DNA from: Mustelus asterias
Lineage: Eukaryota
Length of the DNA: 64,000 bases
Direction: 5' to 3'
Assembly: GCF_964213995.1 (NCBI RefSeq)
Contig: NW_027590140.1
Location: 248,001 to 312,000 of the forward strand
Part shown: in pieces, positions 50,646-59,179 of the stretch
Layout of the letters: every line of letters begins with the position of its first letter
Numbering within the stretch: the first letter of the stretch is position 1
Translations under genes and position numbers: made by a program
Notes under the pieces: model-generated
Told to the model about the DNA's origin: nothing
Database searches by the model: none
What the model saw: the letters and a program-made list of their open reading frames with translations, nothing else

Positions 50646-52579
50646 ATTCGCTTGCTCGTTTCCTCTCTCTCTCTCTTAGTCTCTCCATCCCCATCTTTCT
50701 GATGAGATCTCCACCTCAGCCTCTCTCTTTCTACTCCCTGTATCAATATTTGCGTCCACGGACCTGCATTTAATTCTCACTGCCTTTAGCTCCCTTTTGA
50801 TCTCTGTCATTCTCTCTCCTTCCATTTACTTCTACTTTTCTTCCTCCCTCCATATTGTGTTCAGAAGCTCATTCATTAGAAAATTGTCTTTCACGCGGGC
50901 TAATGCTTTCTTTCCAATTACAATTACACAGACGGAAACAGTCGTTATGTGATTCTGCTGCTGCCAGTGTAAAAGGTTCAGAGTTCACAAACTGATCTCT
51001 TATAACACGGGATATATTACAATCCAGTGATAGTTTCTGTACGGGGCCTGTATCAGTTTGAATCACTGTGAATGTTCAGCGCACTATAATGCATCCCACT
51101 GTCACTCAGCTGTACATCTGTCAGTGTTAAACTGAAGAAACGATCCAACATTCGGAGTGCTGAAGAGATACGTTCTCCCACACGCTCCGCTTTCTCTGCT
51201 TCTCCCTCCGAATTCCTTTTGATTAAAAATGCCGGCTTCTCCCCCGGATTTTGTCGTTACCAGACCAGATCATAGCGGCGGCCGCCTGTGGAGTATGAAC
51301 AGGGCAACACCATGCGTTCTCCGTCCAAACATGATACTGACGGTGCAGTTTGCTTAACAGTATTAGAATAACACAATCCTTCAAATAATCAATAAACAGA
51401 GAATGAACGTATGCTTTGATATTGGGACCATCAGTAAACATTCATTCACCTCCCTCATCATAAGATCTTTGAATGATTCAGCAAAGACCGCATATCGGGC
51501 ATGTGTTGACAGATGACAGATTTATCATTTCATCGAATCCGCTGCTCTTTCTGCATAGCCCAGAATATGTTTTCCTTCAAATATTCATCCAGTTTCCTCT
51601 AAACAGTTACCAAGAAATCTGCTTGGACCAGCATTTCAAGCATGATTAACCCTTTGTAAGAACAACATGCTTCCTTTAATTCATTTTCTAATTACCTGAG
51701 AACAGCCCGAGCTGGTGACCGAACTTTCTATCGCTTGAACAAATGTAAATTACTCGATCAAAACACTTTCTGAATATCGGTATGATCACAGAAGTCATTC
51801 TAACAAAATCTCCCCTCCCCCTGCCCAGGGCCTTGCCATCATTCGGGACGTGGTACCCGCAAATCAACACAAAACTTCAACACAAATCTGATTATCAATA
51901 TTTAAATATTTGAGTTAGTTTCCTTGAACATGTCCATTATTTCTATTAAGAGAAGGACGAATGGGAAATATGTCTTCAAACTTTGCAAATTGCTCTGACA
52001 TTTTCATAGTTTTGAATACATACAGCCTAATGTTTCTTTCTCTTCAATGCCCCCTTTTGAACTACAATAATCTGTTCTAAACCGCTCTGATGAACGTGAA
52101 TGTTCAATCAAAACGTGCATCCGTCCACCCTCTATTATTCCCTTGAACGCCAACCTGTCTACTTCCTTTTTTAACGTCCAATCCTACATCAATATTATTT
52201 TGCAGATCTGCATTCCAATGCGAGCTAAACGACTCACGAGCTTCAGAAAAAGAATCAGAAAGCTCTGAAATCCTGTGACAGTTTTCTTCCGGGGGAGTTG
52301 GATTCCCAAGGGTTTTCAATTTTTCTAAAAGGCGATCTATAATCGAAGTAGGGAATTCACTGACGATTCGGCTGATTGAAGGGTAATATGTCTGTGCAGA
52401 GCTTGTCGATGTGATCCTATCCGCCGCTATTTTACTCTCGGTAATACGGAGTGCAGACTGAGTATGTTGCTCTGAATCAAACAGAAATAAAATGATCTGA
52501 ATGGCCCGCCCGTGCAGCTGCCCTTCCACTCGAGATAATGGAGGTGGTTCTGAAGTTGCGCACTGAGATTCCAACTTAA

Positions 52580-53160: not shown

Positions 53161-53762
53161 CCATTAAATTCTTGAGCATTGTTTTAAAAGATGGGCGTGG
53201 CCTAATTTACCGATGTTCGGGTCTGAAGTATTCAGTGCTGCTTTAAGATCCAGTGTCCAAGAGCAGTCCCGATCAGCAGCCTCCAGTTCCCCGTCATGTA
53301 AACCATCAGCTCCAGGCAGCAGAGAGATGGGAATCCTTGTTTTCACACTGTGTCTGTTTACACCGTGAGTACCGATAAAACTAACCCATACTGTGTGGAT
53401 TGAATATAAGGCTGGGTTTTGGCTGCGGGAGAGTTTCGACTGGAGCTTCACAGCTGAGTTTGCCCATTTAAATTCTTGAGTTTTATTTTTACGGTGGGCG
53501 TGGCCTATTATACAAATGAAAAGACCTAAAATATTTTAGGATAGCACCGAGATCCAGTCTCTCAGAGCAGTCCAGCTCTGCATTCTCCACCAACCACCCC
53601 TCCCCCCCCCACCCCCCCACCCTCTCACTCCACCTGTCATATAATAAATAATCTCCAGACAGGAGCGATGGGAATCCTCCTTGTTTTCAGCCTGTGAGCC
53701 TGTTTACCACGTGAGTACCGATCACACTAACACACATTTTGTGGATTGAATATAAAGCTACC
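53161..53762 (+). repeat. Tandem duplication of the antigen-receptor promoter plus leader exon
   Basis: Both copies contain CCATT(T)AAATTCTTGAG, GGGCGTGGCCTA, ATGGGAATCCT..., GTGAGTACCGAT and GTGGATTGAATATAA; leader ATGs at 53327 and 53668. Confidence 0.85.
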
Positions 53763-54134
53763 CCAGTCCATCTCAATTACAGACACTGTCTGGTGTTTTA
53801 CCCCGTTGAGTGATTCGGCTTTGATCGTCCATTAAACTTTGTGTTTAACTTCCAGGATCTTTCAGTCAGTCAGTGACACAGAGCCCGGCAGCGGTGACCA
53901 GGAAGGAGTGTCAGTCCCTCACCATCACCTTTGTTTTACATGGAGTTTATGATTCAGAAAATGGCCATTGTTTCAGACAAACCCAAACCGGGACAGCTCA
54001 CCAGCGGAAGGCGATTTGTTGTGTCGGTGAATAAAGCAAGAAGGACATTTTCGCTGGGAATTCATAATGTGAGAGTAGAAGACACCGCCACCTATTACTG
54101 TAAAGCGCAGCGCTGGAGGGCACAGATGGGGCAC
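53668..54134 (+). pseudogene. NAR-TCR V segment (leader exon 53668-53710, V exon from 53856), defective
   Basis: Leader MGILLVFSL*ACLP with GTGAGT donor; TTCCAG acceptor; SQSVTQSPAAVTRKECQSLTITF...FRQTQTGT, frameshift, TSGRRFVVSVNKARRTFSLGIHNVRVEDTATYYCKA. IgNAR-like V with a short CDR2 region and an extra FR1 Cys (KEC). TGA in the leader, first canonical Cys is TTT, frameshift near 53995. Confidence 0.8.
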
Positions 54135-54162
54135 CACAGTTCAAGAGAGAACGATAAATACC
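54135..54162 (+). promoter_or_regulatory. 12-bp-spacer recombination signal sequence 3' of the V
   Basis: CACAGTT, CAAGAGAGAACG (12 nt), ATAAATACC. Confidence 0.65.
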
Positions 54163-54482
54163 TCAGGACAATCAAAGCATCTATTCCTAGCAATTCCCTG
54201 GTTCGGCAACTGGACTTGTCGGACAGATGTTATTACCACTACAATCTGGTTTAACATCGTTCTAATGTCCTCCTTTCTGTTATCATTCTTTAATGTTTTT
54301 TCTCCATTTATAAGAATCTTCTATCTCTGCTCCTGTTCCTGGGAGCTCGGAGAGTCATATCGAACAGGTTGATCCAATGTTTTTTTTTAAACAATCAAGA
54401 TCCATTATTGATCTAAATCCCTGGATTAATTGAGAAAAGCCGACGGTCCAGTAATGGGTACTCGACAGTTTGAGGTGTCAGT

Positions 54483-54521
54483 CATTCTTGTGCTGTGCTG
54501 ACTGAGAGCAGTGTCACGGTG
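54483..54521 (-). promoter_or_regulatory. 23-bp-spacer RSS 5' of the J
   Basis: CATTCTTGT (nonamer, 6/9 to GGTTTTTGT), 23 nt, CACGGTG heptamer. Confidence 0.6.
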
Positions 54522-54574
54522 GAGAGAATGGAGATTTGCAGATGGGTCCGGGACGGTGGTGACTGTCACAGCCG
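54522..54574 (+). other. NAR-TCR J segment
   Basis: REWRFADGSGTVVTVTA followed by a phase-1 GTGAGT donor at 54575; xGxGT motif without W/F as in IgNAR-type J segments. Confidence 0.8.
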
Positions 54575-58326: not shown

Positions 58327-58629
58327 ATTCCAGTTAATCTTTGTCACAGAGTTCTCTTCTCCACAACTCTGCTGCAGGTGACACGGTTACTTTAAGCTGT
58401 GAATATTCAGGGAACTGTCAGTCCAATGTACACTGGTACAGTCAGTCCTCAGGACAGGCTCCGAAATACCTGCTTCAGACACACACTTCAGGAGAGGAGA
58501 ATGAAAATGCTGCCGAGGGCAGAATTTCGGCTTCCACCGATTCTTCCTTCGAAATCAGCCGCTTAAGGATCTCGAAACTAGAAATTAACGACTCAGCTGA
58601 GTATTACTGTGCGCTGAGTCGGCCCAGAG
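58327..58629 (+). pseudogene. Leaderless supporting TCR delta V segment of NAR-TCR, with an early in-frame stop
   Basis: CTGCAG acceptor in phase with the J donor; (D)SS*SLSQSS...GDTVTLSCEYSGNCQSNVHWYSQSSGQAPKYLLQ...GRISAS...SRLRISKLEINDSAEYYCALSRPR; canonical C/W/YYC plus an extra CDR1 Cys; TAA at 58335-58337; 23-RSS follows directly. Confidence 0.82.
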
Positions 58630-59179
58630 CACAGTGATACAGAACACGGAGAGAACTGTACATGAACCTGAACATGGCGAGTATTACAGACACAGTGACA
58701 CGGAACAGGGAGAGAGCTGTACGAAAACTAAACATGTTGAGGATTACAGACACAGTGATACATAACAAGGGGAGATCTGTACAAAAACCTGAACATGATG
58801 AGGTTTACAGACAAACATGGAAACAGAACACGGAGAGAGCTGTACAGAAACCTGAACATAATGAAGGTTTAATGAACATAATGAACATAATACAGACACA
58901 GTGATAAGGACTTTGGAGAGAGTTGTCCAAAAACATAAACGCCGTGTAGCTTACAAATACAGTGGCGCAGAACACGGAGAGAGCTGTACAAAAGCCTGAA
59001 CATGGTGAGGATTACAGACACAGTGATACAGAATTCGCAGAGAGTTGTACAAAAAACTGAACATGGTGAGAATTACAGACACAATGATACAGAACATGGA
59101 GAGAGCTGTTTAAAAACCTGAATATGGTGAGGATTACAGACACAGTAATACAGAACCCGGAAAGAGCTGCACAAAAACC
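58630..59179 (+). repeat. Tandem array of nine 23-bp-spacer RSS units (~61-bp period)
   Basis: Heptamers at 58630, 58691, 58751, 58814 (degenerate), 58897, 58958, 59019, 59080 and 59141, each followed 23 nt later by a nonamer-like sequence; unit 3 is perfect CACAGTG-23-ACAAAAACC. Confidence 0.92.

What the first reader, a model, noticed from the sequence alone, without database searches (positions are those of the whole stretch)
54094..54574. NAR-TCR V appears pre-joined to its D in the germline (V-long tail-12RSS ... 23RSS-J, no D between)
Seen: after YYCKA the V continues for nine more codons (QRWRAQMGH; G-rich CGCTGGAGGGCACAGATGGGGCAC) before a 12-spacer RSS (54135-54162). The J about 360 bp downstream has a 23-spacer RSS, and no RSS-flanked D is visible between them. 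Established: NAR-TCR cassettes are described as V-D-J, shark IgH/IgNAR clusters use 23-RSS V and J segments with intervening D segments, and germline-joined VD/VDJ genes are known in cartilaginous-fish Ig clusters. Inference: this is a RAG-made V-D joint fixed in the germline, leaving one D-to-J step, which would extend germline joining to a T-cell receptor cassette. Alternatives are a D-less V12/J23 cassette type, or a simple deletion (a heptamer-like CACAGAT at 54121 could be the remnant of the V's own RSS).
Basis: partly seen in the sequence, partly recalled or inferred. Interest (0 to 1): 0.7.

Follow-up and report, generated by a model that had tools for sequence, protein, structure and literature searches.

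The report
Inherited half-joined shark T-cell receptor, dead
This is a broken copy of a 40-member family of shark T-cell receptor gene cassettes that are inherited with their V and D pieces already fused, likely by the immune recombinase acting once in an ancestor's germ line, so intact copies would need one cut-and-join instead of two, a shortcut known from shark antibody genes but barely recorded for T-cell receptors.

Summary
The layout is real: NAR-TCR V, 12-RSS, no free D, 23-RSS J, then a leaderless supporting V-delta. It is inherited but not special to this locus. 40 of 70 NAR-type V exons examined share the junction and form one clade (100/100). 15 are ordinary split V-D-J cassettes. 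The V-J interval is homologous to their D-J intron, so the V-D intron was lost and the 12-RSS is D's own. The junction also stands in two other samples and, in related form, in two other organism labels. The 'nine extra codons' are mostly ordinary V end: only 10 bases are non-V (8 D-like, 2 unexplained), and the G-richness is later drift. Those 2 bases (up to 4) could be N/P bases or heptamer remnant, so RAG joining is likely (~0.75), not proven. The window copy is a pseudogene (leader stop, Cys23 lost, frameshift, stop in supporting V). At least 6 family copies look intact; expression was not testable. The assembly also holds younger V-D and D-J joins and a signal joint, germline status mostly open. 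The scan already reported this family from other copies.

The parts
53668..53710 (+). Leader exon of the NAR-TCR V, with a TGA stop at 53695-53697
   Evidence: paralogous contigs read T at 53697
53856..54124 (+). NAR-TCR V exon, pseudogene: first Cys codon is TTT (53930-53932), 11-base deletion after 53993; 54099-54124 is the V-encoded end (second Cys to Thr, one base shorter than in the other 38 copies)
54125..54126 (+). Two junction bases (GA here, CA in most of the family) of open origin: N, P or heptamer remnant
54127..54134 (+). D remnant (TGGGGCAC here, TGGGACAC or a close variant in the family), matching the 3-prime core of free D segments such as TAGTGGTTGGGACAGT
54135..54162 (+). 12-spacer RSS, the former D 3-prime RSS, now serving the fused VD
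54163..54482 (+). Former D-J intron; homologous end to end to the D-J intron of split cassettes, not to their V-D intron
54483..54521 (-). 23-spacer RSS of the J
54522..54574 (+). NAR-type J segment (DGSGTVVTVTA) with splice donor
58327..58629 (+). Leaderless supporting TCR-delta V with CDR1 cysteine (CEYSGNCQ); TAA stop at 58335-58337
58630..59179 (+). Tandem array of seven recognisable 23-RSS copies after the supporting V

Best explanation
The window holds a dead copy of an old, much-duplicated family of NAR-TCR cassettes whose V is fused in inherited DNA to the last 8 bases of its D, likely because RAG made a V-to-D coding joint once in an ancestor's germ line. Shown: the V-RSS, V-D intron and D 5-prime RSS are gone, the D 3-prime 12-RSS, D-J intron and 23-RSS-J remain, the junction is shared by 40 copies, and this copy is broken. 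Inferred: RAG cut at the 22-RSS of V and the 5-prime 12-RSS of D, left V untrimmed, trimmed D and added or kept 2 bases. Segmental duplication then spread the cassette. Predicted: an intact copy would finish its NAR domain by one VD-to-J recombination obeying the 12/23 rule, with the first part of CDR3 (QHWYYTHGT or similar) set by the germline, and would splice onto the supporting V-delta as usual.
For: Census: 40 of 70 V exons carry the junction, 38 of 40 at identical length, and 15 of 70 are split V22-12D12-22/23J. D-RSS+intron+J tree: the family is one clade at 100/100, with the window copy nested inside at 99/98. The window interval scores 109-133 against D-J introns of 5 of 5 split cassettes tested (shuffled maximum 47) and 19-25 against their V-D introns (chance level). 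Both breakpoints sit at segment borders, whereas the two non-RSS deletion breakpoints seen in broken cassettes fall inside V and mid-intron. An independent younger joint has the same anatomy: C110:84772 is untrimmed V + C + TGGGACAGT, with its split twin at C71:14347473. A precise 12/22 signal joint at C110:113668 shows RAG products exist in this locus. Inheritance: junction-spanning contigs in samples S2 (0 differences) and S3 (1 difference) and in organism B (10 differences, 1 gap), and the family tail as loose ends in organism C. An unnamed ENA protein with a different CDR1 has the same tail (P0068). At least 6 of 40 copies pass a crude intactness test, and 3 of these checked have an open supporting V with RSS. 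dN/dS between the intact lineage and four open-frame copies from two other lineages is about 0.3-0.4 on small counts.
Against: The junction is not clean by the criterion of PMC2193156 that no base be attributable to the RSS. The CA (or CACA, if the parent V ended 2 bases earlier) equals the start of a heptamer, and the ATGGG that follows equals the start of the V spacer in most split cassettes. No split parent close to the family was found (D-J intron only about 61-64% identical), so trimming and additions are reconstructed from distant cassettes. The V-region tree does not resolve the family as a clade (open node 88/93 with other cassettes; AU p = 0.095 neither shows nor rejects it). 34 of 40 copies failed the crude intactness test, which under-counts. 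dN/dS between pairs of other open-frame copies is about 1 (0.7-2.2). No rearranged VD-J transcript was seen among the 70 protein hits. Samples S2 and S3 share a study with the best holder and may be the same animal or kin.
Confidence: 0.75

Rival explanations
1. An ordinary, RAG-independent deletion (slippage or microhomology repair) removed the V-D interval, breaking 2-4 bases inside the V heptamer and inside D; the result works the same way.
For: The tail contains a (CA)3 run followed by TGGG. Split cassettes read (CA)n then GTGATGGG, and both the V spacer and D contain TGGG. Non-RSS deletions do occur in this locus.
Against: Using the TGGG microhomology needs a second 4-6 base deletion in the heptamer. 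A single random deletion would have to land within 4 bases of the V border and inside a 13-19 base D. The non-RSS deletions seen land far from borders. The young joint at C110:84772 also has a heptamer-like C after an untrimmed V, there explicable as a P base.
Confidence: 0.17
2. The window copy (and its twin at C88:1569063) is a second, independent V-D joint with G-rich N bases.
For: Its tail differs from the family by 7 substitutions, all to G, and 1 deletion in 37 bases; its V end resembles the TACGGCA type of C173:94361.
Against: It nests inside the family on the intron+J tree. The organism B counterpart has one extra base behind 54115, which gives the family length. Drift or gene conversion after pseudogenisation is enough.
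Confidence: 0.04
3. A primary D-less V12/J23 NAR-TCR cassette type, like a light-chain cluster.
For: Spacer lengths fit direct V-J joining.
Against: The 12-RSS and the whole V-J interval are homologues of the D 3-prime RSS and D-J intron. The last 8 bases are a D core. Split V ends stop at the same place in another genus (P0072).
Confidence: 0.03
4. A somatic lymphocyte rearrangement or assembly artefact.
For: Several single-copy RAG products elsewhere in the assembly are nearly identical to split twins and could be somatic.
Against: 40 diverged copies share one junction, and it is present in other samples and organism labels.
Confidence: 0.01

Closest known systems
NAR-TCR, the doubly rearranging TCR-delta of cartilaginous fish (Criscitiello 2006, not held; features from passages of PMC1845163 and PMC12227049)
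   Same: Leader + NAR V with a-b loop Cys (KECQ) and no WYRK tryptophan, NAR-type J, downstream leaderless V-delta with CDR1 Cys.
   Different: V and D are fused in inherited DNA, so the NAR domain would need one recombination rather than two; this copy is a pseudogene.
Partly germline-joined (VD-J) IgH clusters and germline-joined NS4 light chains of sharks (passages of PMC4279169, PMC6795676, PMC2193156)
   Same: Same VD-J state, mixed with split clusters in one genome, little added sequence at the joint.
   Different: Here it is a T-cell receptor cassette. In the NS4 joints no base was attributable to the RSS, whereas here 2-4 bases are ambiguous.
Marsupial TCR-mu V-mu-j (passages of PMC7615758)
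   Same: [quoted passage not shown]
   Different: V-mu-j is fully joined, is the invariant supporting domain and is attributed to retrotransposition; here the tip domain is half joined and keeps its leader intron and RSSs.
Germline-rearranged TCR alpha/beta genes reported in channel catfish (abstract of PMC6170632)
   Same: Rearranged TCR sequence in germline DNA with the leader intron retained.
   Different: Complete V(D)J, PCR-based, attributed to transposition from T cells; not a partly joined, duplicated cassette family.

Membership tests
NAR-TCR cassette | NAR V with Cys in the a-b loop and no WYRK tryptophan | tested here: met
   KECQ and GHCFRQ in the window V; feature from PMC1845163
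NAR-TCR cassette | Leader on the NAR V | tested here: met
   Leader exon at 53668-53710, but with a stop in this copy
NAR-TCR cassette | Downstream leaderless supporting V-delta with CDR1 Cys and 23-RSS | tested here: met
   58327-58629, CEYSGNCQ, RSS at 58630; stop near its start
NAR-TCR cassette | Free RSS-flanked D between V and J | tested here: not met
   No D-flanking RSS pair in 54163-54482; present in 15 of 70 cassettes examined
NAR-TCR cassette | Expressed as a three-domain TCR-delta chain | not testable with these tools
   No RNA holder listed; this copy is broken
RAG-made germline joint (criteria of PMC2193156) | Present in inherited DNA, derived from a split ancestor | tested here: met
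   40 diverged copies, other samples and organism labels, homology to split cassettes
RAG-made germline joint (criteria of PMC2193156) | Breaks at the coding/RSS borders with both RSSs and the intervening DNA removed | tested here: met
   V end complete, D 5-prime part trimmed, no V-D intron homology left
RAG-made germline joint (criteria of PMC2193156) | No base of the joint attributable to the RSS; P bases as hairpin evidence | tested here: inconclusive
   CA or CACA fits the heptamer start, N addition, or a P addition if D began with TG
RAG-made germline joint (criteria of PMC2193156) | Leader intron retained (not a retrocopy) | tested here: met
   Intron 53711-53855 and D-J intron are present
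Primary D-less V12/J23 cassette | V-J interval unrelated to a D-J intron and no D-derived bases | tested here: not met

The most novel reading that the evidence does not exclude
RAG has acted repeatedly on the shark TCR-delta locus in the germ line: one old V-D joint founded more than half of this genome's NAR-TCR cassettes and is shared across species, younger V-D, D-J and inversion products are still arising, and the intact VD-J copies supply a one-step NAR-TCR with a germline-fixed CDR3 stem, a T-cell counterpart of the pre-joined neonatal antibodies.
Probability: 0.35. Interest if true: 0.72.

Novelty: new variant of a known kind. Interest (0 to 1): 0.5.

Why it matters
[quoted passage not shown] A large inherited VD-J family in NAR-TCR would show that germline recombination also reshapes a shark T-cell receptor locus. 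It would give a ready test of whether a fixed CDR3 stem is selected. The window copy itself adds only one decayed member.

Tried and rejected
Uniqueness of the locus: rejected. G-rich tail as D or N sequence: rejected, it is derived from a TAC-rich family tail. Expression: no RNA holder listed, which is no evidence either way; none of the 70 protein hits was a rearranged transcript as far as source names show, a weak negative. Runs with small word shares that I did not lay (X6, X8, X9, X10) are not used. Germline test of the young joint C110:84772 (4 runs): one bridging contig in X3 with 42 and 30 letters on the two sides, one short of the tool's 31-letter rule, and none among listed pieces of X1, X2, X4, where holes prove nothing; counted as a hint only. 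V-region tree: does not resolve the family. Intron distances involving C119:360954 look mis-delimited and were not used. The intactness test required a leader starting ATGGG and so under-counts (model P0003 has an open leader starting ME). Left out of the intron tree: 12 of 70 cassettes with no J found or no recognisable D 3-prime RSS, among them one family member (C111:897125); two members were used without a 2.8-kb insertion. Literature: searches listed no paper on germline-joined NAR-TCR. Criscitiello 2006 and 2010, Deiss 2019 and Ott 2021 are not held and could mention it. The one supplement file held for PMC3964593 gave no hits, and other supplements of that paper may bear on the claim.

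Full report
Observation. The window has a NAR-type V exon at 53856-54134 whose last frame reads YYCKAQRWRAQMGH. It is followed by a 12-spacer RSS at 54135-54162, a 23-spacer RSS at 54483-54521 and a J at 54522-54574. No other RSS was found between them. A leaderless V with a CDR1 cysteine lies at 58327-58629. These are the NAR-TCR features given in passages of PMC1845163. The RSS consensus used for scanning is recalled textbook knowledge. The copy is dead: TGA in the leader, TTT for the first cysteine, an 11-base deletion, and TAA near the start of the supporting V.

Census. DNA and protein searches of the own genome and fetched regions gave 70 NAR-type V exons; this is a lower bound and may include haplotype duplicates. 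They are: 40 with the window's layout; 15 complete split cassettes (V-22RSS, 12RSS-D-12RSS, 22/23RSS-J); 1 independent V-D joint; 3 D-J joints; 2 inversion products; 8 broken or interrupted; and 1 IgNAR-like outgroup. Of the 40, 38 have a junction of identical length, and the window copy and its near-identical twin at C88:1569063 are one base shorter. At least 6 of 40 pass a crude test for leader, acceptor and open V, all with CACAGTG at the 12-RSS. Three of these, checked further, have an open supporting V with RSS downstream.

What was lost. The window's V-J interval aligns along its length to the D-J intron of 5 of 5 split cassettes tested (scores 109-133, shuffled maximum 47, about 62-64% identity) and not to their V-D intron (19-25, chance level). 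The 12-RSS is therefore the D 3-prime RSS. A primary D-less cassette type is rejected. On a tree of D-RSS, intron and J (58 of 70 cassettes, 46 distinct rows) the family is one clade at 100/100, with the window copy nested at 99/98. The tree of upstream DNA plus V leaves the family in an open node, and the AU test neither shows nor rejects a clade (p = 0.095). One old event followed by duplication is the simplest reading.

The junction. Split V ends run 25-27 bases from the Cys codon. Those in the family's part of the V tree are 27 bases and end in ACA or ACG, and a Chiloscyllium punctatum model reads YWYYT followed by heptamer-coded HSD. So 27 of the family's 37 bases are V, the last 8 (TGGGACAC) match free D cores such as TGGGACAGT and TGGGATATT, and 2 (CA) are unexplained. 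They could be N bases, P bases of a D starting TG (IgNAR-like Ds in this genome start TGGG, but none of the 20 NAR-TCR D rows does), or the start of the V heptamer. PMC2193156 (passages) argued for RAG in shark germ cells partly because no joint base was attributable to an RSS; that test is inconclusive here. In favour of RAG, both breaks are at segment borders, while the two non-RSS deletion breakpoints seen in broken cassettes are not. The window's G-rich tail differs from the family by 7 substitutions and 1 deletion and is best read as decay.

Inheritance. Forty diverged copies cannot come from one lymphocyte. Of 10 runs listed, 4 were laid on the window. Contigs span the junction in X3 (sample S2, 54090-54327, 0 differences), X4 (S3, 53997-54258, 1 difference) and X5 (organism B, another study, 54090-54343, 10 differences and 1 gap). 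X7 (organism C) has no cover over the window's own tail but shows the family tail as loose ends. An unnamed ENA protein with another CDR1 ends YWYYTHGT and reads on through the 12-RSS. S2 and S3 belong to the same study as the best holder and are not proven independent animals. The nearest named protein to an intact copy (99%) is labelled Mustelus asterias by its source.

Other RAG-like products. C110:84772 is untrimmed V + C + TGGGACAGT, with a split twin at C71:14347473 almost identical in V and intron. C173:94361 joins a D and a J each trimmed by 3 bases. C90:1134834 and C119:338928 are D-J joints with no close split twin found. C122:392453 joins a NAR D to an inverted supporting V. C110:113668-114490 has a precise 12/22 signal joint at one end and a V end fused to a J-RSS at the other. 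These show RAG chemistry in this locus, but they may be somatic. Only the first was tested, with one borderline bridging contig in 1 of 4 runs.

How it would work. In an intact copy the fused VD carries a 12-RSS facing a 23-RSS J about 360 bases away, so one deletional recombination would complete the NAR domain, with a germline-set CDR3 stem and one variable junction (inference from the 12/23 rule). dN/dS of about 0.3-0.4 between the intact lineage and four open-frame copies from two other lineages, against about 1 (0.7-2.2) among those four, hints at selection on that lineage, on small counts. Expression could not be tested.

Comparison and novelty. Partial VD-J joining is described for shark Ig clusters (passages of PMC4279169 and PMC6795676). 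Germline-joined TCR V genes are in print for marsupial TCR-mu (passages of PMC7615758) and channel catfish (abstract of PMC6170632). Seven searches and passages of PMC12227049 (also abstract and section 6), PMC5931798 and PMC3964593 gave no mention for NAR-TCR, but four primary papers were not held. Eight earlier notes of this scan describe the same family from other copies; they are not independent support. Verdict: real and inherited, a new variant of a known kind, seen here in a dead copy.

Noticed in passing
window 58630-59179: Seven recognisable 23-RSS copies in a ~61-base tandem array behind the supporting V-delta; other intact-ended supporting Vs carry 2-5 copies, five of them perfect in L031. 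Purpose unexplained; may allow repeated or more efficient rearrangement.
   Followed up: partly
L082 (G000:C110:113668-114490): Precise head-to-head 12/22 signal joint at one end and a V end fused to a J-RSS at the other end of an inverted V-D-J interval: a RAG hallmark in the assembly, germline or somatic unknown.
   Followed up: partly
L086 (G000:C110:84772): Independent young V-D joint in an otherwise intact cassette, nearly identical to split C71:14347473; one borderline bridging contig in run X3.
   Followed up: yes
L031 (C173:94361), L044 (C90:1134834), L053 (C119:338928): Three NAR-TCR cassettes with D already joined to J (V-22RSS ... 12RSS-DJ); the C90 one has extra G-rich bases 5-prime of the D.
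   Followed up: partly
L078 (G000:C122:392453-393470): NAR D joined to an inverted supporting V-delta end, a cross-domain V-D joint.
   Followed up: partly
L065-L066, L096, L103, L104 and others: Many family members occur as facing inverted pairs 8-11 kb apart, each with its own supporting V; one partner is usually the intact type, the other decayed.
   Followed up: partly
window 51032-51373, minus strand: A further TCR-type V exon with a 23-RSS, oriented opposite to the cassette.
   Followed up: no
window 53328-53365: A second, out-of-phase leader-like exon in a duplicated promoter block upstream of the real leader.
   Followed up: no
L087 (G000:C71:735068): IgNAR-like V followed by several short RSS-flanked D-like segments starting TGGG; used only as outgroup.
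   Followed up: no
L032, L033, L034: Three family members have an insertion of about 2.8 kb in the D-J intron and a deletion removing the YY codons.
   Followed up: no
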